Origin: Verrucomicrobiota bacterium
GTDB taxonomy: Bacteria; Verrucomicrobiota; Verrucomicrobiia; Limisphaerales; JACDHS01
Assembly (NCBI GenBank): GCA_013820875.1
Contig: JACDHS010000007.1
Coordinates: 6,246 to 70,245, forward strand
Direction of reading: 5' to 3'
DNA length: 64,000 nucleotides
Under the pieces are notes generated by a model. It ran no database searches, was not told the origin of the DNA, and was given only the letters and a program-made list of their open reading frames with translations. The position numbers were made by a program, and so were the translations under genes. Positions 39,144 through 64,000 of this stretch are shown here, piece after piece. Numbering within the stretch: position 1 is the first letter of the stretch; each line of letters begins with the position of its first letter.

Positions 39144-41717
39144 GTGAAACCGAAACGAAAAGACCTCGACATCACATCGCACACGGACAGCGATCCGATC
39201 CGGACTCCGTATACCAATACCATTCCTCCGGAGGATGAACCGCGTTATCCAGGCGACCGTGAAACCGAGCGCCGCATCAAGAGCATCATCCGCTGGAATG
39301 CAATGGCGATGGTGGTCAATGCCAACAGCAAACACGATGGTCTTGGCGGGCATATTTCGAGTTTCGCCTCCAGCGCGACTCTTTACGAAGTCGGCTACAA
39401 TCATTTTTTCCGCGGCGGCGAAGGGGATCGTCCGGCTGACCTGATCTATTTCCAGGGCCATGCCACACCCGGAAACTACGCCCGTGCTTTTCTGGAAGGA
39501 CGTTTGACCGAGCAGCATTTGCGCAATTTTCGGCAGGAGCTTAGTCCCGGCGGCGGTTTGTCTTCCTATCCGCATCCTTATTTGATGCCGGAGTTTTGGC
39601 AGTTCCCGACTGTTTCGATGGGGCTTGGCCCGATCATGTCCCTATACCAGGCCCGTTTCATTCGTTACATGCAGGCCCGTGGACTGCTGAAGAAAGAGAA
39701 TGAACCCAAGATATGGTCCTTCGTCGGTGACGGCGAATCGGATGAACCAGAAACTCTTGGTGCCGCAACACTCGCCTCGCGCGAGAAGCTCGACAACCTG
39801 GTCTGGGTCGTGAATTGCAATTTGCAGCGTTTGGATGGACCGGTTCGCGGCAATGGTAAAATCATTCAAGAACTCGAAGGCTCTTTCCGCGGCGCTGGCT
39901 GGAATGTCATCAAAGTGATTTGGGGTTCCAACTGGGATCCGCTGTTTGCCAAAGATGAGACCGGTCTGCTGCTCAAGCGCATGGAAGAATGCGTGGATGG
40001 TGATTTCCAGAAGTATTCTGTCGAGCCCGGCAGTTACATTCGTCGGCATTTCTTTGGAAAATATCCGGAATTGCTCAGCCTGGTGGCGCATTTAAGCGAT
40101 GATGAATTGCGAAAGCTCACTCGTGGCGGGCACGATCCGCAGAAAGTTTACGCTGCTTTCAAAGCGGCTGTGGAACATAAAGGTGCGCCTACCGTTATTC
40201 TCGCCAAGACCATTAAAGGATATGGCCTGGGTGAAGCAGGCGAAGGCCGCAACATTTCGCACGGTCAGAAAAAGATGAACGAAAAAGAGCTGCGGGAATT
40301 CCGCGCTCGTTTCGACATTCCCATTTCCGACGAAGAAATCGCGGAGTATCCGTTCTATCGGCCATCACCGGACTCGCACGTCATCAAGTATTTGCAGGAT
40401 CGCCGGAAGAAACTCGGCGGCTACGTTCCCAAGCGGGAAGTAAAGGCTGCTCCGCTGCAGATTCCACCGATCTCGACGTTTGCTTACGCACTCAAAGGGA
40501 CGGGGAAGACGCGCGTGGGTTCGACGACGAAAGGTTTTGCCGAAACCATCAAGTCGCTAATGCGGGACAAAACGGTAGGGCGCCATGTCGTGCCGATCAT
40601 TCCTGACGAAGCGCGCACCTTCGGCATGGATACGATGTTTTCCGAGTTCGGAATCTATTCCTCCAAGGGTCAGCTTTATGAACCTGTGGATCGGGAAGCG
40701 ATTGCCTATTACAAAGAAGCGAAGGATGGACAGATCCTTGAAGAAGGCATCACGGAAGCAGGCGCCATTTCTTCCTTCGTCGCGGCTGGCACCGCCTACG
40801 CCAATCATGGCGTCAACATGATTCCGTTCTACATCTTCTATTCGATGTTCGGTTTCCAACGTGTTGGCGATCAGATTTGGCTCGCGGGTGATAGTCGTTG
40901 CAAAGGTTTTCTGCTCGGGGCGACTTACGGTCGGACCACCCTGAATGGCGAAGGTTTGCAGCACGAAGATGGTCATACGTTGCTCATGGCGAGCACTGTT
41001 CCAAACATTTTTGCCTATGATCCGGCGTTTGATTTCGAAACTGCCGTCATCATCCATGATGGACTCAAGCGGATGTACGAGAAGGGCGAAGAAATCTTCT
41101 ATTACATCACCCTTTACAACGAAGATTATCAAATGCCTGCGATGCCGGAAGTTGAAGGTATCGAAGAAGGCATTCTGAAGGGGCTTTATAAATTCAAGGC
41201 TGGCGAAAAAGGAAAATACAAAGCGCAGATCTTCGGCAGTGGTTCCATCATCCGCCAGGCGTTGAGAGCGCAGGAAATTCTCGCGGAAAAATACAATGTT
41301 TCCGCCGACGTCTGGAGCGCCACCAATTACAAATCACTTCGCAACGACGCTTTGAAATGTGATCGTTGGAACATGCTGCATCCGACCGAAACACCGAAGC
41401 AATCCTACGTTGAATCGCTCTTGCAGAAGGAAAAGGGACCGTTCATTGCCGTATCCGATTCGTTGAAACTGGTTCCCGAACAAATTCGGCCATGGGTTCC
41501 AGGTCACTTTACGGTGCTCGGGACGGACGGCTTTGGTCGCAGCGAAACGCGTCCGAATCTGCGACGGTTCTTTGAGATTGATGCCGAATGCACGGTCATC
41601 GCGACACTTTGGGCACTGGCCAAAGAAGGGGCGATTGAAAAGAAAGTCGTCGCGCAAGCGATCAAGGATCTTGGGGTGAACCCGGACAAAGTGTTCCCGG
41701 AAATACTCTCCGCGTAA
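39144..41717 (+). CDS. aceE: Pyruvate dehydrogenase E1 component (homodimeric AceE type)
   Basis: 857 aa with a GTG start as listed. RIKSIIRWNAMAMV, GGHISSFASSATLYEVGYNHFFRG and FVGDGESDEPE align with E. coli AceE as I recall it. Confidence 0.9.
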   Translation: MKPKRKDLDITSHTDSDPIRTPYTNTIPPEDEPRYPGDRETERRIKSIIRWNAMAMVVNANSKHDGLGGHISSFASSATLYEVGYNHFFRGGEGDRPADLIYFQGHATPGNYARAFLEGRLTEQHLRNFRQELSPGGGLSSYPHPYLMPEFWQFPTVSMGLGPIMSLYQARFIRYMQARGLLKKENEPKIWSFVGDGESDEPETLGAATLASREKLDNLVWVVNCNLQRLDGPVRGNGKIIQELEGSFRGAGWNVIKVIWGSNWDPLFAKDETGLLLKRMEECVDGDFQKYSVEPGSYIRRHFFGKYPELLSLVAHLSDDELRKLTRGGHDPQKVYAAFKAAVEHKGAPTVILAKTIKGYGLGEAGEGRNISHGQKKMNEKELREFRARFDIPISDEEIAEYPFYRPSPDSHVIKYLQDRRKKLGGYVPKREVKAAPLQIPPISTFAYALKGTGKTRVGSTTKGFAETIKSLMRDKTVGRHVVPIIPDEARTFGMDTMFSEFGIYSSKGQLYEPVDREAIAYYKEAKDGQILEEGITEAGAISSFVAAGTAYANHGVNMIPFYIFYSMFGFQRVGDQIWLAGDSRCKGFLLGATYGRTTLNGEGLQHEDGHTLLMASTVPNIFAYDPAFDFETAVIIHDGLKRMYEKGEEIFYYITLYNEDYQMPAMPEVEGIEEGILKGLYKFKAGEKGKYKAQIFGSGSIIRQALRAQEILAEKYNVSADVWSATNYKSLRNDALKCDRWNMLHPTETPKQSYVESLLQKEKGPFIAVSDSLKLVPEQIRPWVPGHFTVLGTDGFGRSETRPNLRRFFEIDAECTVIATLWALAKEGAIEKKVVAQAIKDLGVNPDKVFPEILSA

Positions 41718-41744
41718 TGAAACCCCGGTTTGAGACCAAACGGA

Positions 41745-41815
41745 GCATTGGAGCAATGGAGTGCTGGATTATTGCGCTTATTCCATTTTTCCATTACTCC
41801 ATTACCCCACGTTTT
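41745..41815. repeat. GGAGCAATGGAGT-type palindromic element in the aceE-aceF spacer
   Basis: TTGGAGCAATGGAGTGCTGGATTATTG faces TTATTCCATTTTTCCATTACTCCATTACC. This is the same family as 38417-38494 and the single arm CACTCCAATACTCCAATGCC at about 43128-43150. Confidence 0.75.
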
Positions 41816-41819
41816 TAAT

Positions 41820-43127
41820 ATGGACTTCAGATTACCAACTCTTGGCGAAGGCGCTGATTCCGGCACCGTCGTCAATATCCTCGTCAACGAAGGCGATACC
41901 ATTACCAAAGGCCAGACGGTCATCGAACTGGAAACCGGCAAAGCAGTGACGCCGATTCCTTCAGCCGTCGCCGGGCAGATCACCAAGCTGCTCGTCAAAG
42001 AAGGTCAAAAACTTTCCGTTGGCGCGCCCATCCTTTCCGTATCCGGTGATGCTGCGGGATCGGATGAAGCCCCTGCTGCCGCTGCTCCGAAGAGAGCGGG
42101 GGGCAAACCTGCGGCGAAGAAAGTTTCCAAACCAGAACCAGAGGAAGAAGAAACGGAAGAAGCAGAATCCGAAGAGGATTTTGAATATTCAGGCGATCAA
42201 CCTCCGCCAGCCTCTCCCTCTTTGCGCCGCCTGGCTCAAGACCTTGGCATTAATCTCCGCAAAGTCCGCGGGAGCGAAGGTGGCGGGCGCATTGTTCTCA
42301 CCGATCTCAAAGCCTATATCGCCAATCTCCAGGCGCTCGCGAAAAAAGCACAGGCTCCTGCCGCTGCAGCGCCGGGTGCGCAAGCCAAGCCTGTTGCAGC
42401 GCCGGTTGATTTCTCACGTTTCGGTTCCATTTACAAACGTCCAATGACCCCGTTGCGGAAAGTTATTTCGCAACGCATGGCCGAAAACTGGAATGCAATT
42501 CCGCACGTCACCCAGTTCGATAACATCGACCTGACGAACCTCATGGCGATGCGCAAAAAATACGTGGAAGCCTACGAGAAGAAGGGTGCCAAACTGACCG
42601 TCACTGCACTTTCCTTAAAGGCAGTGGTTAACGCGCTGAAGAAACATCCGATCTTCAACTCGAGCCTCGACGAGGTGGCTGAAGAAATCGTTTTCAAGGA
42701 ATATTTCCACATCGGCATCGCCGTGGATACTGACCAGGGACTTATCGTTCCGGTGATTCGCAATGCGGATAAGAAATCGATTTTCGAACTGGCTAAAGAA
42801 TTGGCTGAGCTCGCGGAGAAAACACGGGACCGCAAAGTCTCGATGGAAGATCTGCAGGGCGGCACCTTTACGATTTCGAACCAGGGCTCATTCGGCGGCG
42901 CTCATTTCACTCCGATTGTTAACCGACCGGAAGTCGCCATTCTCGGAATGGGCAAAGGCGCGATGCAACCGGTGGTGACAAAGGACGGCAAGATTGAAGC
43001 GCACAGTGTGTTGCCGGTCGGACTGTCCTACGATCATCGGGTGATCGATGGTGGCAGTGCCGCCCGATTCATGGTGGATCTCGTCAATGAGTTCCAAAAC
43101 TTCAACGAAGCAGATGTGAAGATTTAA
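41820..43127 (+). CDS. aceF: Dihydrolipoamide acetyltransferase (PDH E2), single lipoyl domain
   Basis: ATG at 41820 gives MDFRLPTLGEGADSGTVVNILV...ELETGKAV (lipoyl-Lys motif). It has an Ala/Pro/Glu linker, the subunit-binding domain (SPSLRRLAQDLGINL) and the catalytic site DHRVIDG. Confidence 0.9.
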   Translation: MDFRLPTLGEGADSGTVVNILVNEGDTITKGQTVIELETGKAVTPIPSAVAGQITKLLVKEGQKLSVGAPILSVSGDAAGSDEAPAAAAPKRAGGKPAAKKVSKPEPEEEETEEAESEEDFEYSGDQPPPASPSLRRLAQDLGINLRKVRGSEGGGRIVLTDLKAYIANLQALAKKAQAPAAAAPGAQAKPVAAPVDFSRFGSIYKRPMTPLRKVISQRMAENWNAIPHVTQFDNIDLTNLMAMRKKYVEAYEKKGAKLTVTALSLKAVVNALKKHPIFNSSLDEVAEEIVFKEYFHIGIAVDTDQGLIVPVIRNADKKSIFELAKELAELAEKTRDRKVSMEDLQGGTFTISNQGSFGGAHFTPIVNRPEVAILGMGKGAMQPVVTKDGKIEAHSVLPVGLSYDHRVIDGGSAARFMVDLVNEFQNFNEADVKI

Positions 43128-43166
43128 TGCCAGCACTCCAATACTCCAATGCCCCCCTCTCCTAAC

Positions 43167-44582
43167 ATGGAAACAATTAAAACTGAAATCGTCGTTGTGG
43201 GTGCCGGGCCTGGCGGGTACGCCGCGGCGTTCTACGCTGCTGACCTTGGCAAAAAAGTCATTCTCATCGAGCAGGACACCAAGCTCGGCGGCGTTTGCCT
43301 GAACCGCGGTTGCATCCCCTCCAAGGCATTGCTGCATGCAACCAAGATGATCAACGAAGCCAAACAATCGGCAAATCGCGGAATTACTTTCGATGCGCCG
43401 AAGGTGGACGTCAGCAAATTGCGCGATTGGAAAAACTCGGTTGTGCAAAAGCTTTCGGGCGGTATCGCGCAACTCGCCAAAGCTCGTGGCGTCGAAGTGA
43501 TGTATGGTCGTGGACACTTTGATGGCTCGCAGAAACTGCGCGTTGAAACCGAGGATGGCCAGAAGTGGGTCGAGTATGACAAAGCGATCATTGCCGTCGG
43601 TTCCAAACCGGCGATGCCGAAGATTTTTGATCTGGGCAATCCGCGGGTGATGACAAGCACCGAAGCACTCGAAGTCGAAGAAGTGCCCGAAGACATGCTC
43701 GTCATTGGTGGCGGATACATTGGGATGGAGTTGGGCACTGTTTACGCCTCTCTTGGCACAAAAGTCACCGTGATCGAAGCGATGGATTCGATCCTCGCCG
43801 GCGCTGATCCAGACCTGATTCGTCCCGTCGTTAAATACGCGGAGAAGAATTTCAAAGAAGTTCGTTACAAAGCGAAAGTCGTGAAGATGGCCACCAAAGG
43901 AAAAAAGATCCAGGTCATCAGTGAAAAGGATGGTCAACAAACCGAAGAACTTTACGACCGTGTTTTGGTTTCCGTCGGCCGCGTGCCGAACAACAAAGAT
44001 CTCGGGCTGGAAACAACCAAGATCGAGATGGATGAAAAAGGTTTCATCAAGGTCAACGAAACCATGCAAACCAGTGATGCGAATATCTATGCCATCGGCG
44101 ACATCGCTGGCGGTGTGATGCTGGCGCATAAAGCTTCTCGCGAAGCGCGTATTGCGATTGAAAACATTGCTGGCGAAGGTGCGATCAACAAAGACATCGT
44201 CATCCCGGCTGTTGTGTTTACCGAACCTGAAGTTGCCTGGGCCGGCATCACCGAAGCCGAAGCGAAAGCCAAAGGCATCGCAGTGAACATTGCCAAGTTC
44301 CCATGGGCCGCCTCTGGACGTGCGCTCACCTTTGACCATGCTGAAGGTGTCACCAAGCTTATCCTGGAACCCGACACCGACCGCATTCTTGGCGTGGGTA
44401 TTGTTGGCCATGGTGCAGGTGAACTGATTGGCGAAGCTGTCGTGGCCATTGAGATGGGAGCGAATGCCAAGGATCTTGCGCTTTGTGTGCATCCGCACCC
44501 GACTGTCTCCGAGACCATGATGGAAGCTGCGGAAGCTTTCTACGGGCACGCGACCCATATCTACGCTCGGAAGAAGCAGTAA
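43167..44582 (+). CDS. lpdA: Dihydrolipoyl dehydrogenase (E3)
   Basis: ATG at 43167. It has the FAD motif VVVGAGPGGY, the redox-active GGVCLNRGCIPSK, the NAD motif VIGGGYIGMELG and the C-terminal HPHPTVSE. Confidence 0.92.
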   Translation: METIKTEIVVVGAGPGGYAAAFYAADLGKKVILIEQDTKLGGVCLNRGCIPSKALLHATKMINEAKQSANRGITFDAPKVDVSKLRDWKNSVVQKLSGGIAQLAKARGVEVMYGRGHFDGSQKLRVETEDGQKWVEYDKAIIAVGSKPAMPKIFDLGNPRVMTSTEALEVEEVPEDMLVIGGGYIGMELGTVYASLGTKVTVIEAMDSILAGADPDLIRPVVKYAEKNFKEVRYKAKVVKMATKGKKIQVISEKDGQQTEELYDRVLVSVGRVPNNKDLGLETTKIEMDEKGFIKVNETMQTSDANIYAIGDIAGGVMLAHKASREARIAIENIAGEGAINKDIVIPAVVFTEPEVAWAGITEAEAKAKGIAVNIAKFPWAASGRALTFDHAEGVTKLILEPDTDRILGVGIVGHGAGELIGEAVVAIEMGANAKDLALCVHPHPTVSETMMEAAEAFYGHATHIYARKKQ

Positions 44583-58336: not shown

Positions 58337-58636
58337 TTAAGCTGCTTCTTTCTTCTTGTTACACTTCTGGCACACCTTCTTTTCTTTGGTGGCTTCCTTG
58401 CAGCATGCGTGAGTGCAATCTTTCTTCTTGGCGATCGCTTTGTCACAGCAGGAGGCATCTTTCTGGCACTTTTCGCAGGTCTTTTCTGCGTCACGCGCTT
58501 CCACGCAACATTTGTGACTGCAATCTTTGCCGGTAGCTTTGGCTTTGACGCAGCAACTTTCTGCGAATGCGCTGTTTGCGCCGAAAGAAAGGGCGAATGC
58601 TACGGTAAGTAGTGAGAATGCTTTGATGAGTTTCAT
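58337..58636 (-). CDS. Small secreted Cys/Lys-rich protein with an internal 35-aa duplication (putative periplasmic metal-binding protein)
   Basis: 99 aa with signal peptide MKLIKAFSLLTVAFALSFGANSAFA. The mature 74 aa contain 14 Cys in two repeats with identical spacing, CC-x9-C-x3-CC-x9-C-x2-C. Confidence 0.65.
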   Translation of the reverse strand: MKLIKAFSLLTVAFALSFGANSAFAESCCVKAKATGKDCSHKCCVEARDAEKTCEKCQKDASCCDKAIAKKKDCTHACCKEATKEKKVCQKCNKKKEAA

Positions 58637-59052
58637 ATTTTACTTTGTTCCTGGAACTAATGTTTGCCTGTATCCTGGTGGCATACCTTTGCTTGACAGA
58701 CACAGGTGAACTGAGGCTGAAACTGACAGAATACCCTGCGTTTGTCGATAGGCATCTCCCCTGATACCGAGTAGTCGGCGCATCCCAGTTTCTTTCAGTG
58801 CGTCTCAATCCTGAACACCGGGAGGACGCCCGGTGAACTCGCAGCCGAGGACGACTACGCTACGTAGGGCAGGCCTCCGCCTGCCCGTTCAATCCGCGTA
58901 TCCTACGTTCCCGGGCACTTTCGGATCATCCGAAAACCTTCCTAAACGCCTGAAAATCAGGCGATCCTCGCTATCGGTTGAATCATCCTAAAAACGGCAG
59001 TTTAAGGCAGAGACACAGAGAGGCAAAGGCGCAGAGAGAGGGGAGAGTGCAC

Positions 59053-59160
59053 CGGAACGCCGGATTTATCCGGCAGCAATCTCCAAACTAAACGGTGATC
59101 CGATAAATAATGGCAGGTCGCTCCAGTATCTCGCTGCTGCCGGATAAATCCGGCGTTCCG
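59053..59160. repeat. Palindromic element with 25-bp perfect arms
   Basis: CGGAACGCCGGATTTATCCGGCAGC (59053-59077) is the exact reverse complement of GCTGCCGGATAAATCCGGCGTTCCG (59136-59160). Each arm contains its own CCGGAT(T/A)(T/A)ATCCGG palindrome. Confidence 0.9.
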
Positions 59161-59408
59161 AGGATTTCCAACTGCTTCTGCCATCCATGCAACCACACGA
59201 CACCTCCTTAAACTTACTTCGGAAATATCCGTGCTCTTTCCGCAAAAACCTTTAAAAACCCCCGCATGGAAATGGACCTCGAAACAGACCTCACCAACGA
59301 CGAAGTATATCAAAAAGCCCTCAAAGAGCTCACCAGCTTCGGCTTTCACCAAAGGGAAAAGATTGGCCCTCTCTTCCCCAAGGACTGCAGAGAGCCCGAC
59401 GAGAAAGG

Positions 59409-61982
59409 CTACTTGGGCCCGACTAATCGCCATCTCGGTGCCACCGGCTGCCCATCGCGAATCAACATTGCGCTGACAAAATCTATCCCATTCATCGACC
59501 ACATTGCCAGCTTCCCGGAATCGTGTTGAAAAACGATATCAATATTTCCGTCGTTGTTCAAATCTGCCAAAGCCGCAGCGCGCCAACCTGATCCGATGGG
59601 GTGCCCATTCCGCAGCAACTCCGCGCTTTGAAAATCGGAGCCGTTCATTAACCAAACTGCCAGCCTACCATTGACATGTTGCATTAAAATGTCGCCTTGC
59701 TTGTCGCCATTAAAATCCGCCACGCCAATTATACGCCAGATGGGTGCAAGCGGTTGACCATTGCGGATCGATATCGAGTTGATGAACGCAGCCCCGTTAA
59801 GATGCCAAACAGCAAGTTTGCCGTTGTCGTGCTGAAACAGTATGTCTGTTTGTCCGTCGTTGTTAAAATCATTAAGCCCAACGATTTTCCAGCTCGGACC
59901 AACTTTTCGAATGGATACTGAGTCAATGAATTCGGTCTGATTCATCAGCCATGCCGTAATGCGTCCATCTTCATGCTGCCAAAGAATATCCCAATTAGCA
60001 TCGCCGTTGAAATCAGCCTGTCCAACAATCTTCCAGCCAGGACCTACGCGAGTGCCGTTTCTCAGCAAGGCGCCGCGGACGAAAGTCGTTCCTTCCATCA
60101 CCCACGCAGCAGTCACACCATTTGTATCCTGCCAAAGCAGATCGGGCCGCACGTCTCCGGAAAAGCTTGCCGAGGAAGAAACCATTTCGAATTGGCCTGT
60201 CTGCATGTCTCCGGAAAAATTTGTGGAGATGTAGCTGCCGGTTCCCGGCGTAACGAAGGTCAGAGTGGTATTGATGGAATGAAACCCAAGGGTCGCGCTG
60301 GTGGCATCGGATTTGACGTAGGTGTAAATGCCATTCGTTGCAGCAGTAACACCAGTCACAGGGACGATATTGAAAAAATTATTAGTTCCAGTAGAGGATA
60401 CAAAAAGAAAGATGCCATCACCCGGGAACACCCCATTCCCATCGCTGATTGTCATCCGCAAGGTTTGGCCCACGAGCGTTGTTCCCGCTTCCTCGCCGCT
60501 CTGGGTAATCACAAAATTGTGCGTCCCAATCTGGATCGAACCCCTGCGAGGGATCTGGCCATTGTTTGGGGCAACCGATAAAATTACCGCATCGGGACCA
60601 CGCCCAATCTCCGTTCCGTCGATAGAAATCCACGCATTTGTGTTTATGACAATAGAATCAAGACACATGCCCCATCCCATAATGTGTAGATTGTTCGTTC
60701 CAGCTGAGGGCACGGATGCTTGATTCCAAAATAATGTTGGATTACATTGAACGTTCAAAGTAGCTGCGGAACTGGTGATCGACCCTGCTTTATTTGAGAC
60801 CACTACATGATACGTACCCGCACTTTCCTGTTGGATATTCCAAATAACCAAATTGGACGAAACTGCACCTTCAAGGAGGTTCCCATTCTTGAACCATTGG
60901 AACGAGAATGGCATTGGGCCTGTAACACCCACTGAAAGTTGAAACGTAGAATCCACCAGCTGTGTGGAACTCTGCGGGTGTTGATGAATGTGAGATGCCG
61001 TCAGTTTAGCCAATGCACTTGGATTCTGTCCAACGGCGGTTTTCATGACAACTCGATAGGCACCCTCGTCAGCGGCCGAGACATTCCTGATGGTCAGGCT
61101 GTCGTTAGTCTCACCTGGAATTAGAACCCCATTGAATTGCCATTGATAACTCACGGGATAGGAACTGACAGCACGAACACGGAAGGCGGCCGTTTCAGTG
61201 AGTTTTTTATCGACGTTCTCTGGCTGTTCAACGATGAAAACACCAGTTGGCCTTAAGCCTACCGAATGCCCGCCAGCCAGAGCCAAAGCCAAAAAATTTG
61301 TTGCTCGAGCAGGTACGTGACTATTGAGCCCCCACATGGATACTGTTCCGTCAGACTTCAATACGGCACAGCGGCCATAGTGAGTTGCCATTTGAACTAC
61401 ATTCGAAAGATTTGGAGGGACAATCGACTCACCCCAGTAATTCGGAGCAGTCACCAGCACATTTCCGCTCTTCTTCAGAATCATGCTGGAAATCCAACCG
61501 GCAGCAATTGCCTTTGCATCTGAAACAGAGGAAGAAATTCCAAACTCCCCCCAACCAACTACGGTTCCATCTGATTTTAGAGCGAGATTATGATAAGCCC
61601 CCGCTGCCACAGCTACTACATCTGTCAGTCCTTGCGGCACAGACGTGGCGCCTCCATAACCGTTACCCCATGCCGCGACGGTGCCGTTACTTCTCAAAGC
61701 CACGCTAAAATCGGCACCTGCTGAGATTCCTATGGCATCAATGAGCGGTGGAGGAGCCGCTTGTCCATTGTAATTACGTCCCCATCCAACAATCGTCCCG
61801 TCCTTTTTCAATGCAAGACTGTGAGTGTCTCCTCCAGCGACAGCGACGACATTTCTTAATCCCGCCGGAACGTCACATTGACCGTCTGAATTAATTCCCC
61901 ACGCGACTACTGTCCCATCAGCCCGCACAGCAAGAGTATGGCCTCCGCCACAAGCAATGGAGATGATGCCAGATATCCCCAA
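59409..61982 (-). CDS. RCC1-repeat / Ig-like / FG-GAP(VCBS)-repeat surface protein, distal part (no ATG, no signal peptide; in frame with the upstream ORF)
   Basis: 857 aa from a TTG. It has about 6-7 blades of the GGGHTLAVRADGTVVAWG / VVAVAAGAYHNLALKSDGTVVGWG type and two Ig-like modules (YQWQFNGVLIPGETNDSLTIRNVSAADEGAYRVV). About five C-terminal repeats are of the DFNGDxxxDILWQHxxGxLAxWLMNG type. Confidence 0.75.
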   Translation of the reverse strand: MGISGIISIACGGGHTLAVRADGTVVAWGINSDGQCDVPAGLRNVVAVAGGDTHSLALKKDGTIVGWGRNYNGQAAPPPLIDAIGISAGADFSVALRSNGTVAAWGNGYGGATSVPQGLTDVVAVAAGAYHNLALKSDGTVVGWGEFGISSSVSDAKAIAAGWISSMILKKSGNVLVTAPNYWGESIVPPNLSNVVQMATHYGRCAVLKSDGTVSMWGLNSHVPARATNFLALALAGGHSVGLRPTGVFIVEQPENVDKKLTETAAFRVRAVSSYPVSYQWQFNGVLIPGETNDSLTIRNVSAADEGAYRVVMKTAVGQNPSALAKLTASHIHQHPQSSTQLVDSTFQLSVGVTGPMPFSFQWFKNGNLLEGAVSSNLVIWNIQQESAGTYHVVVSNKAGSITSSAATLNVQCNPTLFWNQASVPSAGTNNLHIMGWGMCLDSIVINTNAWISIDGTEIGRGPDAVILSVAPNNGQIPRRGSIQIGTHNFVITQSGEEAGTTLVGQTLRMTISDGNGVFPGDGIFLFVSSTGTNNFFNIVPVTGVTAATNGIYTYVKSDATSATLGFHSINTTLTFVTPGTGSYISTNFSGDMQTGQFEMVSSSASFSGDVRPDLLWQDTNGVTAAWVMEGTTFVRGALLRNGTRVGPGWKIVGQADFNGDANWDILWQHEDGRITAWLMNQTEFIDSVSIRKVGPSWKIVGLNDFNNDGQTDILFQHDNGKLAVWHLNGAAFINSISIRNGQPLAPIWRIIGVADFNGDKQGDILMQHVNGRLAVWLMNGSDFQSAELLRNGHPIGSGWRAAALADLNNDGNIDIVFQHDSGKLAMWSMNGIDFVSAMLIRDGQPVAPRWRLVGPK

Positions 61983-62003
61983 TGGGGCATTCGTCTGGTC
62001 GCC

Positions 62004-63431
62004 TCAGAGGATTGGTAAACCCATCGGTTTTGATGATAAGACCGCTACGTTTACTGTTACGTTCGTTTCTCTTTCCCAATCCGTGACGAGTTTGACTGTA
62101 TAAATGCCGGAGTCTGCATCCTGGGCGTTATCTAAATTCAACGTGGCGTTTGTAGCCTCAGGAAGATCAATCCCTTCAAATTGCCACTGGTATCGAATCG
62201 GAACGGCGTTCGTCGCGGAAATCGTCAGGGCTAAATCTGTTCCCGCAAAGATGTAATCATCCCGAGGGGATTCAAGAATTGAGGGAAGATCCCCAAATGC
62301 CAGTTTCGCCGAAGCTCTCACGGAAGCCCCATCTCCTGTTATCACGACAGTATAAATTCCTGCATCCGTGGACTGCACATTGCTGAGCAGCAACTCGGCA
62401 CTCGTTGCAAAAGGGATATCAGTTCCGTTTAACTGCCATTGATATTGGATCGATCCGGCAGTGTTTGCCTCAACACGAAAGAGGACTGATGACCCGAATT
62501 CGGAAACGACATTTGTTGGTTCGGAAGTGATAAACGGTCCGATAAAAATTGCGTAATTCTGAGCATACCCGCAATCAATGGCCACGACATTCGTAAGACC
62601 ATGCGGCGGAGCGGGCATCTCATAAACGGTCGTGACACTGCTTGAATAGACAACTTTCCCCCAACTTACCACCGTGCCATTGTCCTTTAACGCAAGGCTA
62701 TGATAAGCACCCGCCGCGACGGCAACGACGTTGGAAAGCGTGTGAGGCGGAGAAACCTGCCCATACGTATTGTTCCCAAATCCGACGACAGAACCGTCAT
62801 TCTTCAGAGCCAACGCGTGACTTCCTCCCGCGGCGATCGCAACCACATCATTCAGTCCAGTGGGAACGATTAGAGGAAAATTTGCAGCCCAACTCACTAC
62901 ATGTCCGTTATCAAGCAGAGCGAGGGCAGAGGTGCCGGAGGCAATCGCAACCGCATTCGTTATAGTCGGGTAATTAACCCCGCTATAGCTGGGAGGACTG
63001 GTTAGATGAACCACTGTTCCATTGGTTCTTAGAGCCATTTTGTATGGCAAGCCAGCGACCGCGATAACATCGTCCAACTCCAAATTGAGAGTCGCGTTGG
63101 TATAATGACCGGTCCATTGCAGTAATTTTCCATCGCTCTGAAGGGCAATGCCCTCGGCAAAATCAATAATATTACTGAGGATCGGATAGCCTGCATTGTC
63201 GCAGACGATTCCTGAGGAATTGAGGAAATAGTTTTTACCATTAAAGCTGAGAGGAATAACTTTTACAATGTCCGCCAAATCCAGAGGAATAGTCGTTTCA
63301 ATTTGGGAATGCATATCGCCCCATCCTACAACTCTTCCTTTGGGCATGTTGGTCAACGACAACCAATTGGCCTGGTGAGCGTATGCACTAAAAGTGGAAA
63401 CCAAACAAAGAAGGAGGATGCGCCCGAACAT
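62004..63431 (-). CDS. RCC1-repeat / Ig-like surface protein, proximal part with signal peptide
   Basis: ATG at 63431 gives MFGRILLLCLVSTFSAYA (signal peptide). RCC1-like blades follow (VVAIAAGGSHALALKNDGSVVGFG, VVAVAAGAYHSLALKDNGTVVSWG), then two Ig-like modules (IQYQWQLNGTDIP..., IRYQWQFEGIDLP...). It ends at TGA 62006-62004. Confidence 0.75.
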   Translation of the reverse strand: MFGRILLLCLVSTFSAYAHQANWLSLTNMPKGRVVGWGDMHSQIETTIPLDLADIVKVIPLSFNGKNYFLNSSGIVCDNAGYPILSNIIDFAEGIALQSDGKLLQWTGHYTNATLNLELDDVIAVAGLPYKMALRTNGTVVHLTSPPSYSGVNYPTITNAVAIASGTSALALLDNGHVVSWAANFPLIVPTGLNDVVAIAAGGSHALALKNDGSVVGFGNNTYGQVSPPHTLSNVVAVAAGAYHSLALKDNGTVVSWGKVVYSSSVTTVYEMPAPPHGLTNVVAIDCGYAQNYAIFIGPFITSEPTNVVSEFGSSVLFRVEANTAGSIQYQWQLNGTDIPFATSAELLLSNVQSTDAGIYTVVITGDGASVRASAKLAFGDLPSILESPRDDYIFAGTDLALTISATNAVPIRYQWQFEGIDLPEATNATLNLDNAQDADSGIYTVKLVTDWERETNVTVNVAVLSSKPMGLPIL

Positions 63432-64000
63432 AGTATAATAAAAACACTTTATTATCAGATTAATCCACCCTTGGGAAGAAGCATCGGCAATACGAAACCA
63501 GCTCACCTCTCGCGTCCATCGGATCTTTATTATGGGAACCTGGAATGCTTTACGTTGAGCGTACCGACGACAAAGCCATCGCATCCGTCCGCCGTGAATT
63601 TCCAGATAGCGAAATGGAAATCTAAGGAGAATACCCGAGAGTGAAGCTACCCGAGGACGCCTACGAAGCTCCCGAATAGACGCTGCTGACCCTCTCGGAA
63701 CAGCTCAAAACGGATGTCATTTGGATGAGTTTTCTGAGTGCGGTGGATGCATTTCAGTTTCATCATTGTCGATCTGGGAAGTGCATGCGATGGCTTGTCA
63801 TTGGTTGCTTTGTAGAAGAGCGCAAGTGGGAGCGAGTGGAACGCAATCCGGAGCCGTGGGAACGCGAGAACTTTTTCAATGATAAAAGCCTTGAGTTTGA
63901 ACTGAAGTGGAAAGACACGCAAAACGGGAAGGACGAGTTGCGACGGATCTGGCGGGAAGCTGAAGTTCAACCCGGAAAGACGGAGCCCAATTAAGACTCT

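What the first reader, a model, noticed from the sequence alone, without database searches (positions are those of the whole stretch)
61959..62030. A single in-frame TGA is all that separates two large RCC1/Ig ORFs (a combined 1391-codon frame)
The proximal ORF ends ...SSKPMGLPIL-TGA (62006-62004). I translated the next codons by hand in the same frame. They read G-D-Q-T-N-A-P-L(TTG, 61982)-GISGIISIACGGGHTLAVRADGTVVAWG, which runs straight into a well-formed RCC1 blade.

The distal 857-aa ORF has no ATG and no signal peptide. It has no Shine-Dalgarno within 5-12 nt of the TTG the ORF caller used, yet it is clearly an extracytoplasmic-type protein (Ig and FG-GAP repeats).

Three explanations fit:
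- One giant secreted protein carries a very recent nonsense mutation or a sequencing error.
- The UGA is read through or recoded.
- The distal part is made by reinitiation and exported in some unusual way.
Basis: seen in the sequence. Interest (0 to 1): 0.6.

Follow-up and report, generated by a model that had tools for sequence, protein, structure and literature searches.

The report
One gene broken by a stop codon
The two large ORFs are halves of one secreted multi-domain protein gene in an uncultured Verrucomicrobia bacterium, in which a conserved tryptophan codon (TGG) has become a TGA stop, so this is an ordinary nonsense mutation and not recoding.

Summary
On the minus strand one TGA (62006-62004) is the only stop in a 1391-codon frame.

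**What it is:** The four closest homologues are single polypeptides of 1773-1831 aa. They align without gaps across the junction at 47-52% identity. All four have Trp-Gly where the window has stop-Gly. That Trp belongs to the first 'VVxWG' strand of the second RCC1 propeller. The ancestral codon was therefore TGG, one G-to-A transition from TGA.

**Against recoding:**
- UGA ends 10 of 31 long ORFs in the window, so the code is standard.
- The downstream hairpin folds no better than shuffled sequence (z = +0.63).
- No Rfam family matches the region.
- The aligned residue in homologues is Trp, not Cys.
- No other stop-for-Trp case occurs among 753 intact motifs in 1.2 Mb of related loci.

**Against two independent genes:**
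- The distal ORF has no signal peptide, while relatives of its C-terminal module do.
- It also lacks the first propeller strand.

**Assembly and age:**
- Three assemblies, including an independent Logan assembly, are identical, so this is not an assembler artefact. Read-level support could not be checked.
- No second disruption has accumulated, so the mutation is young.

**Verdict:** an ordinary nonsense allele or nascent pseudogene. Low interest.

The parts
62004..62006 (-). Premature TGA stop replacing an ancestral TGG (Trp) codon. The next base (+4) is G.
   Evidence: Sequence read directly. It aligns to W of 'WG' in P0022, P0025, P0021 and P0041. It is identical in three assemblies.
63378..63431 (-). 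Start codon (ATG at 63431) and Sec-type signal peptide MFGRILLLCLVSTFSAYA of the whole ancestral gene.
   Evidence: Translation. NCBI's annotation starts here (475-aa MBA4147014.1). Homologues have signal peptides at the same place. The signal peptide was judged by eye, not with a predictor.
62007..63377 (-). Proximal part still translated: RCC1 propeller 1 (about 62535-63338), two Ig domains (about 62037-62534), and the orphan first strand of propeller 2 (KPMGLPIL).
   Evidence: Pfam RCC1_2 74.8 bits and Ig_3 58.2 bits. Coordinates.
61998..62024 (-). First beta-strand motif of propeller 2 (MGLPIL*GD, ancestral MGxVVxWGx), cut by the stop.
   Evidence: Ungapped alignment to homologues. The same 'G[RK]VVxWG' element opens propeller 1 (GRVVGWGD) and opens stand-alone RCC1 proteins straight after their signal peptides.
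59409..62003 (-). Distal 864 codons plus TAG: the rest of propeller 2 (to about 61236, six further WG motifs), two Ig domains (about 60747-61235), a middle region with no Pfam match (about 60180-60746), and a C-terminal FG-GAP/VCBS repeat region ending VGPK.
   Evidence: Pfam RCC1_2 128.4 bits, Ig_3 55.5 bits, FG-GAP_3 56.7 bits. The C-terminal module is shared with P0127 and P0130. Coordinates.
61980..61982 (-). TTG used by ORF callers and NCBI as the start of the distal ORF. It most likely just encodes a Leu of the ancestral protein.
   Evidence: The sequence upstream is GC-rich coding sequence, unlike the AT-rich leaders of real starts here.
61926..61928 (-). GTG chosen as the start by the gene calls stored with the Logan and bulk-metagenome assemblies (839-aa product). 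A GGAGG lies 13 nt upstream but belongs to the Gly codons of the conserved RCC1 'GGG' motif.
61965..61998 (-). The hairpin proposed as SECIS-like (CCAGA...CCCC AUU GGGG...UCUGG). It is not significant.
   Evidence: MFE -17.4 kcal/mol against a shuffle mean of -19.2, z = +0.63. No Rfam match at E <= 10.

Best explanation
The two ORFs are one gene. It encodes a secreted protein of about 1,340 aa in a Verrucomicrobia MAG. The domain order is signal peptide, RCC1 propeller, Ig, Ig, RCC1 propeller, Ig, Ig, a middle region with no Pfam match, then FG-GAP/VCBS repeats.

A single G-to-A transition changed the TGG codon for the conserved Trp of the first 'VVxWG' strand of the second propeller into TGA.

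**Shown**
- Homology continues through the stop.
- The four closest homologues have Trp at that position.
- The organism uses the standard genetic code.
- The distal part has no signal peptide.
- The sequence is identical in independent assemblies.

**Inferred**
- Translation now ends at codon 476 of the mature-start frame. That yields a secreted fragment of about 457 aa: propeller 1, two Ig domains and a 9-residue orphan tail.
- The distal 864 codons are made only at trace level. Ordinary near-cognate misreading of UGA by Trp-tRNA(Trp) would restore the wild-type residue. Termination-reinitiation at the TTG or GTG would instead give a cytoplasmic product with no signal peptide and an incomplete propeller.
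- Because 864 codons downstream are still undisrupted, the mutation is evolutionarily very young, or it is a segregating allele. That makes this a nascent pseudogene or truncation allele.
For: **Frame and code**
1. One stop in 1391 codons.
2. UGA is a normal stop here, ending 10 of 31 long ORFs.

**Homology across the stop**
3. P0022, P0025, P0021 and P0041 are single polypeptides of 1773-1831 aa. P0022, P0021 and P0041 start with a signal peptide, while the P0025 record lacks a start Met and begins within a hydrophobic stretch. All four have the same module order and align ungapped at 47-52% identity over a 150-aa segment spanning the junction. They read WG where the window reads *G, for example PARPMGEVVSWGSQTNVPAGSSGVIAISAG against SSKPMGLPIL*GDQTNAPLGISGIISIACG.
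4. The same strand opens propeller 1 (GRVVGWGD) and opens stand-alone RCC1 proteins right after their signal peptides.
5. Propeller 2 has six WG motifs downstream plus the interrupted one, which makes seven.

**Export and start signals**
6. The distal ORF has no signal peptide. Relatives of its C-terminal module (P0127, P0130) do have one.
7. The sequence upstream of the TTG looks like coding sequence, not like the AT-rich leaders of real starts here.

**Assemblies**
8. The MAG, the bulk assembly and the Logan assembly show 0 mismatches over 5 kb, including the TGA.

**Base rate and age**
9. No other stop-for-Trp site flanked by long open frames occurs among 753 intact DGxVxxWG motifs in 1.2 Mb of related loci.
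10. 3.3% of single substitutions in the distal part would create a stop. With indels added, the chance of no further hit falls to 5% at about 0.5-1.4% neutral divergence.
Against: - No close orthologue (above 52% local identity) was found in any collection. The ancestral codon is therefore inferred from paralogue-level relatives that are not syntenic.
- Raw reads could not be examined, and the three assemblies probably derive from the same run. A consensus-level error or a mixed population therefore remains possible.
- The residues just before the stop (LPIL against the usual VVxW context) are somewhat divergent.
- Pfam profiles do not bridge the junction even with Trp restored.
- An intact distal reading frame is also what continued selection on the distal part would produce.
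Confidence: 0.78

Rival explanations
1. The gene is intact in the organism. The TGA is a sequencing or consensus error, or a minority allele that became the assembly consensus.
For: - The change is a single base.
- The MAG comes from a metagenome, and no read-level data could be inspected.
- The rest of the 1391-codon frame is flawless.
Against: - The MAG contig, the bulk metagenome contig and the independent Logan assembly of SRR11719875 are identical over 5 kb, including the TGA.
- Single-base substitution errors rarely survive consensus at normal coverage (general knowledge).
- The Logan contig runs through the site without a break.
- The exact intact (Trp) protein is not in the 15-billion-protein collection.
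Confidence: 0.08
2. Programmed or selected UGA read-through. The gene makes a short secreted form and, by regulated read-through that inserts Trp, a full-length form.
For: - UGA is the leakiest bacterial stop and is misread by Trp-tRNA(Trp) in competition with RF2 (PMC10570021, PMC5289835). Read-through would therefore restore exactly the ancestral residue.
- The distal 864 codons are undisrupted.
- The +4 base is G, not the strongly terminating U (PMC5289835).
Against: - Homologues have TGG rather than a conserved stop.
- The site does not recur in 753 equivalent motifs.
- The downstream hairpin is no better than shuffles.
- No Rfam element matches.
- E. coli work singles out +4A as the context most prone to tRNA(Trp) misreading, and the base here is G (PMC5289835).
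- A young nonsense mutation explains the intact distal frame equally well.
Confidence: 0.05
3. A functional gene fission. The distal ORF is made separately by termination-reinitiation at TTG 61982 or GTG 61928 and works on its own or together with the proximal product.
For: - In-frame TTG and GTG lie 8 and 26 codons after the stop.
- Genes in this organism mostly initiate without an SD site.
- Gene callers and NCBI annotate two proteins.
Against: - The distal product would have no signal peptide. Its Ig and FG-GAP modules occur behind signal peptides in relatives.
- The cut is not at a domain boundary. It removes the first strand of a seven-bladed propeller.
- No relative starts or ends at this position.
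- The sequence upstream of the TTG is GC-rich coding sequence, unlike real leaders here.
Confidence: 0.06
4. The UGA encodes selenocysteine, directed by a downstream SECIS hairpin.
For: A hairpin (CCAGA...UCUGG) lies just downstream of the UGA.
Against: - In known selenoproteins Sec aligns with Cys in homologues (general knowledge). Here the aligned residue is a structural Trp of a beta-propeller strand.
- The hairpin has z = +0.63 against shuffles.
- No Rfam SECIS or other family matches at E <= 10.
- The window contains no tRNA, and so no tRNA-Sec.
- The protein is a non-enzymatic repeat protein.
Confidence: 0.01

Closest known systems
Giant RCC1-repeat / Ig-domain secreted proteins of Verrucomicrobia (for example P0022, P0025, P0021 and P0041, annotated 'alpha-tubulin suppressor-like RCC1 family protein' or 'immunoglobulin domain-containing protein')
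   Same: - They have the same N-terminal architecture: propeller, Ig, Ig, propeller, Ig, Ig. P0022, P0021 and P0041 begin with a signal peptide, while the P0025 record lacks a start Met.
- They are 42-44% identical overall and 47-52% identical across the junction.
- They carry the same 'PMGxVVxWG' start of propeller 2.
   Different: - They are uninterrupted, with TGG at the site.
- They continue into a third propeller and more Ig domains, not into the FG-GAP module.
- They sit in a different genomic neighbourhood, followed by a Metallophos gene. They are therefore paralogue-level relatives, not positional orthologues.
Ordinary nonsense-mutated genes (nascent pseudogenes or truncation alleles) in bacterial genomes
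   Same: - A single premature stop one transition away from the sense codon found in relatives.
- Homology continues in frame beyond the stop.
- The distal part has no signals of its own.
   Different: Nothing distinctive. The only unusual points are the size of the gene and that the distal 864 codons are still undisrupted.
Near-cognate UGA read-through by tRNA(Trp), for example the E. coli nudL extension (PMC10570021) and the phage Q-beta A1 protein (own knowledge; Weiner and Weber 1973, as cited in PMC5289835)
   Same: The stop codon is the same, and the inserted residue would be the same. Here it would regenerate the ancestral protein.
   Different: - Those cases involve natural gene-end stops that are conserved, with extensions that are functional.
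- This is an internal stop at a conserved Trp position, with no conservation of the stop and no stimulatory element detected.
Bacterial selenoprotein genes (UGA plus an adjacent SECIS hairpin, for example fdhF; own knowledge)
   Same: An in-frame UGA followed by a hairpin.
   Different: - Homologues carry Trp, not Cys.
- The hairpin is not significant.
- There is no Rfam match.
- The protein is not a redox enzyme.

Membership tests
Nonsense-interrupted single gene (premature stop / nascent pseudogene) | Homology to uninterrupted relatives continues in the same frame on both sides of the stop | tested here: met
   Ungapped alignments at 47-52% identity over 150 aa spanning the stop to P0022, P0025, P0021 and P0041.
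Nonsense-interrupted single gene (premature stop / nascent pseudogene) | Relatives carry a sense codon one substitution away from the stop | tested here: met
   All four closest relatives have Trp (TGG is the only Trp codon), and TGG to TGA is one G-to-A transition.
Nonsense-interrupted single gene (premature stop / nascent pseudogene) | The distal part lacks its own export and start signals and begins inside a domain | tested here: met
   - No signal peptide in the distal ORF, while P0127 and P0130 have one.
- The stop removes the first propeller strand.
- The start context is unlike real starts, though that last point is weak.
Nonsense-interrupted single gene (premature stop / nascent pseudogene) | The stop is real in the DNA of the organism (read support) | not testable with these tools
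   Three assemblies agree with 0 mismatches, but raw reads cannot be inspected.
Selenoprotein gene (UGA = Sec) | Homologues have Cys or Sec at the UGA position | tested here: not met
   Homologues have Trp.
Selenoprotein gene (UGA = Sec) | A SECIS stem-loop immediately downstream | tested here: not met
   The hairpin is no more stable than shuffles (z = +0.63). No Rfam hit at E <= 10.
Selenoprotein gene (UGA = Sec) | selA, selB, selC and selD present in the genome | not testable with these tools
   Only the 64-kb window is available, and it contains no tRNA.
Reassigned genetic code (UGA = Trp or Gly, tables 4 / 25) | UGA is not used as a terminator, and in-frame UGAs are frequent in conserved genes | tested here: not met
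   - 10 of 31 long ORFs end in TGA.
- This is the only long-ORF pair split by a stop with homology across it.
Programmed stop-codon read-through | The stop codon and its context are conserved in relatives | tested here: not met
   Relatives have TGG. There are 0 other cases among 753 equivalent motifs. No close orthologues exist for testing finer conservation.
Programmed stop-codon read-through | A stimulatory downstream structure or a leaky tetranucleotide context | tested here: inconclusive
   The structure is not significant. The context is UGA-G, which is neither the lowest read-through context (+4U) nor the +4A context singled out for tRNA(Trp) misreading in E. coli (PMC5289835).
RCC1-like repeat propeller / Ig / FG-GAP extracytoplasmic repeat proteins | Pfam domain matches above the gathering thresholds | tested here: met
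   RCC1_2 scores 74.8 and 128.4 bits (cut-off 22). Ig_3 scores 58.2 and 55.5 bits (cut-off 30). FG-GAP_3 scores 56.7 bits (cut-off 26.9).

The most novel reading that the evidence does not exclude
The TGA is maintained, not merely tolerated. A TGG-to-TGA change at this Trp is uniquely 'soft', because natural misreading of UGA by Trp-tRNA(Trp) restores the wild-type residue. One gene could then yield an abundant short secreted form (propeller plus two Ig domains) and a rare full-length form carrying the FG-GAP module. The ratio would be set by growth state, as UGA read-through is in E. coli (PMC10570021).
Probability: 0.05. Interest if true: 0.5.

Novelty: already known. Interest (0 to 1): 0.1.

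Why it matters
This matters mostly for annotation.
- MBA4147014.1 ('hypothetical protein', 475 aa) and MBA4147013.1 ('VCBS repeat-containing protein', 857 aa) should be read as two fragments of one interrupted gene of about 1,340 aa. The distal 'protein' with its TTG start is probably not a real independent product.
- The case also warns against over-reading in-frame UGAs in repeat-rich MAG genes as recoding. Checking the aligned residue in homologues (here a structural Trp) settles it quickly.
- If the stop were shown to be maintained and read through, it would be a rare bacterial chromosomal example of functional UGA read-through. Nothing found here points that way.

Tried and rejected
1. 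**Code reassignment.** Rejected, because TGA terminates about a third of the window's long ORFs.
2. **SECIS / selenocysteine.** Rejected for three reasons.
   - The hairpin has z = +0.63 against shuffles.
   - Rfam gives no hit at E <= 10 over 61700-62300.
   - Homologues carry Trp at the site.
3. **Suppressor tRNA or tRNA-Sec nearby.** The window contains no tRNA.
4. **Search for close orthologues to read the codon directly.**
   - The GTDB species representatives gave at best 38-41% identity, and the source genome is not among them.
   - The JGI metagenomes gave at best 45% on a short segment, and 39% for the top-ranked locus.
   - Three protein searches found nothing closer than 52% across the junction. 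One RCC1-only protein reaches 65% over part of the propeller.
5. **Exact look-up of the intact allele** (Trp restored, two alternative starts). Not in the collection.
6. **Synteny of the closest homologues.** Their neighbours differ, so they are not positional orthologues.
7. **Structure prediction of the fused junction segment.** The role of the interrupted strand in closing the propeller therefore rests on sequence alignment only.
8. **Pfam on the Trp-restored junction.** The profiles do not bridge the junction. The RLD-domain match starts at profile position 29 just after the stop, which is consistent but inconclusive.
9. **'No SD' as evidence against an independent start.** Rejected as uninformative, because genes here rarely have an SD site.
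10. **Lipoprotein-like reading of MGISGIISIAC.** Rejected. There is no charged n-region, and the segment is the conserved RCC1 strand 'GVIAISAG' in homologues, which have Ala at the Cys position.
11. **Literature look-up of the sample accessions.** Nothing found.

Full report
**1. The observation.**
- On the minus strand the sequence reads ...CCA ATC CTC TGA GGC GAC CAG ACG AAT GCC CCA TTG GGG ATA TCT... The TGA is at 62006-62004 and the TTG at 61982-61980.
- The ORF list gives 63584..62004 (526 aa) and 61982..59409 (857 aa, TTG start).
- Translating 63584..59409 in one frame gives 1391 codons plus the terminal TAG. The single internal stop is at codon 527.

**2. Source.**
- Exact-sequence look-ups show the window is from a Verrucomicrobia MAG with a contig of about 77 kb.
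- NCBI annotates the proximal ORF as MBA4147014.1 (locus tag H0X66_02785). It is 475 aa and starts at the internal Met MFGRILLL...
- NCBI annotates the distal ORF as MBA4147013.1, 'VCBS repeat-containing protein', 857 aa.
- The same locus is present in a bulk metagenome assembly (GCA_020064125.1) and in the independent Logan assembly of run SRR11719875.
- All three are identical to the window over 59000-64000, TGA included.
- The stop is therefore not an assembler artefact. The assemblies probably share reads, and reads could not be examined.

**3. Genetic code.**
- Among 31 long ORFs in the window, 10 end in TGA, 13 in TAA and 8 in TAG. UGA is a normal terminator in this organism.
- A scan for same-frame open segments separated by one stop found only one other convincing gene pair, at 41730-43127 | TAA | 43149-44582.
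- That pair is the complete E2 and E3 genes of pyruvate dehydrogenase, with full and unrelated domain sets. It is a negative control showing that sharing a frame means little by itself.

**4. What the two halves are.**
- Pfam finds RCC1 repeats followed by two Ig domains in the proximal ORF.
- In the distal ORF it finds RCC1 repeats, two Ig domains and C-terminal FG-GAP/VCBS repeats.
- The proximal ORF has a typical Sec signal peptide, MFGRILLLCLVSTFSAYA (judged by eye).
- The distal ORF starts MGISGIISIACGGGHTLAV, which is an RCC1 beta-strand and not a signal peptide.

**5. The decisive comparison.**
- A search with the fused sequence found thousands of Verrucomicrobial single polypeptides of 1,600-2,300 aa with repeated RCC1 and Ig modules. 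None was a close orthologue (best identity 35-44%).
- The four most similar proteins (P0022, P0025, P0021, P0041; 1773-1831 aa) share the window protein's module order. Three of them begin with a signal peptide, and the P0025 record lacks a start Met.
- Over a 150-aa segment spanning the junction they align without gaps at 47-52% identity:

| Sequence | Residues across the junction |
|---|---|
| window | VAVLSSKPMGLPIL*GDQTNAPLGISGIISIACGGG |
| P0022 | LVVLPARPMGEVVSWGSQTNVPAGSSGVIAISAGNY |
| P0025 | LVVLPLQPMGIVVSWGSQTTVPAGLSGVIAISAGNL |
| P0021 | LFVLSTRPMGKVVGWGENTNVPAWLSGVVAIAAGDN |

- P0041 reads the same way, with a one-residue gap downstream of the WG.
- All four have Trp-Gly where the window has stop-Gly. 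Trp has a single codon, TGG, so the stop is one G-to-A transition from the ancestral state.
- In more distant relatives the local alignment slips by a few residues, but a WG always lies at the module start.
- The same strand opens the window protein's own first propeller (KGRVVGWGD).
- It also opens stand-alone RCC1 proteins directly after their signal peptides, for example P0274 ...SFHSFAVVPGKVVAWGNN and P0294 ...SHAVANQVVAWGNPTNVP.
- Propeller 2 has six WG motifs downstream of the stop, and the interrupted one makes seven.
- The stop therefore lies a few residues inside the second propeller, not in an inter-domain linker.

**6. The distal part cannot stand alone.**
- Its C-terminal half (Ig, then a region with no Pfam match, then FG-GAP repeats ending ...VGPK) recurs at 35-38% identity and full coverage in P0127 (758 aa) and P0130 (691 aa).
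- Both begin with signal peptides and end ...VGPK or ...VSPK. The module is therefore extracytoplasmic.
- The distal ORF has no export signal.
Only about 1 of 20 confident genes in the window has a good SD site, and real starts follow AT-rich leaders. The TTG follows GC-rich coding sequence.
- The GTG at 61928, which the stored gene calls on the Logan and bulk-metagenome contigs use as the start, has a GGAGG 13 nt upstream. That GGAGG is simply the Gly codons of the conserved 'GGG' motif.

**7. Recoding tests.**
- The proposed hairpin does appear in the minimum-energy fold of 62010-61945. Its energy is -17.4 kcal/mol against a shuffle mean of -19.2, giving z = +0.63, and 146 of 200 shuffles fold at least as well.
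- No Rfam family matches 61700-62300 at E <= 10.
- The window contains no tRNA gene.
- Selenocysteine normally replaces Cys in homologues (general knowledge). Here the aligned residue is a structural Trp.
There was no other stop-for-Trp site flanked by long open frames. The window site has 566 and 864 open codons on its two sides, while every other regex hit lies in a noise frame with 43 codons or fewer.
- The site is therefore a one-off and not a family habit.

**8. Age.**
- In the distal 864 codons, 3.3% of possible single substitutions create a stop.
- With an indel-to-substitution ratio of 0.05-0.2, the chance of no further disabling hit falls to 50% at 0.1-0.3% neutral divergence and to 5% at 0.5-1.4% (the ratios are assumptions).
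- Either the mutation is very recent or segregating, or the distal part is still under selection.
- The exact intact allele is not in the 15-billion-protein collection.

**9. Mechanism.**
- *Most likely (inferred):* ribosomes terminate at UGA. The cell then secretes a fragment of about 457 aa made of propeller 1 and two Ig domains.
- Background misreading of UGA by Trp-tRNA(Trp) in competition with RF2 is well documented in E. coli and B. subtilis. UGA is the leakiest stop (PMC10570021; PMC5289835). Such misreading would give trace amounts of exactly the wild-type protein.
- The +4 base here is G. It is neither +4U, which gives the lowest read-through, nor +4A, the context singled out for tRNA(Trp) misreading in E. 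coli (PMC5289835).
- Reinitiation at the TTG or GTG would give a cytoplasmic product with no signal peptide and an incomplete propeller.

**10. Searches that found no closer relative.**
- The GTDB species representatives, the JGI metagenomes and a junction-only protein search found nothing closer than about 52% across the junction.
- The closest homologues are not syntenic.
- The ancestral Trp is thus inferred from paralogue-level relatives. This is the main limitation, together with the lack of read-level data.
- Pfam on the restored junction was inconclusive.

**11. Verdict.**
- This is one gene with a TGG-to-TGA nonsense change. It is an ordinary kind of event and should be annotated as an interrupted gene.
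- Recoding, selenocysteine and functional fission are each unlikely.
- Interest is low.

Noticed in passing
window 58337-58636 (-): A 99-aa ORF with a clear signal peptide (MKLIKAFSLLTVAFALSFGANSAFA), followed by a Lys- and Cys-rich repetitive region (many Cys, with CC and CxxC-like motifs). It has no Pfam match, and it is called as a gene in the other assemblies. It may be a small periplasmic metal-binding protein.
   Followed up: partly
window about 58852-58947: The independent Logan assembly of SRR11719875 breaks here, just downstream of the RCC1 gene. One contig ends at 58852 and the other at about 58947, while the MAG contig is continuous. The cause is unknown and could be a coverage drop, a repeat or strain variation.
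   Followed up: no
window 39144-44582 (+): A pyruvate dehydrogenase E1, E2, E3 operon. E2 and E3 share a reading frame and are separated only by TAA plus 7 codons, yet they are complete and unrelated genes. This is a useful negative control for 'same-frame neighbours'.
   Followed up: yes
whole window (about 20 gene starts): Genes in this Verrucomicrobia MAG almost never have a Shine-Dalgarno motif (1 good SD in about 20). Their starts sit behind AT-rich leaders, which suggests mainly SD-independent initiation.
   Followed up: partly
window 60180-60746 (-), and P0127 / P0130: The middle region between the last Ig domain and the FG-GAP repeats (CNPTLFWNQ...QTGQFEMV) has no Pfam match. It is conserved, together with the ...VGPK C-terminus, in otherwise different secreted proteins. 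It looks like an uncharacterised module that travels with the FG-GAP propeller.
   Followed up: partly
tool behaviour: The window's own proteins are in the protein collection, but the search for homologous proteins never listed them. The absence of a self-hit there does not mean the genome is missing from the collection.
   Followed up: partly
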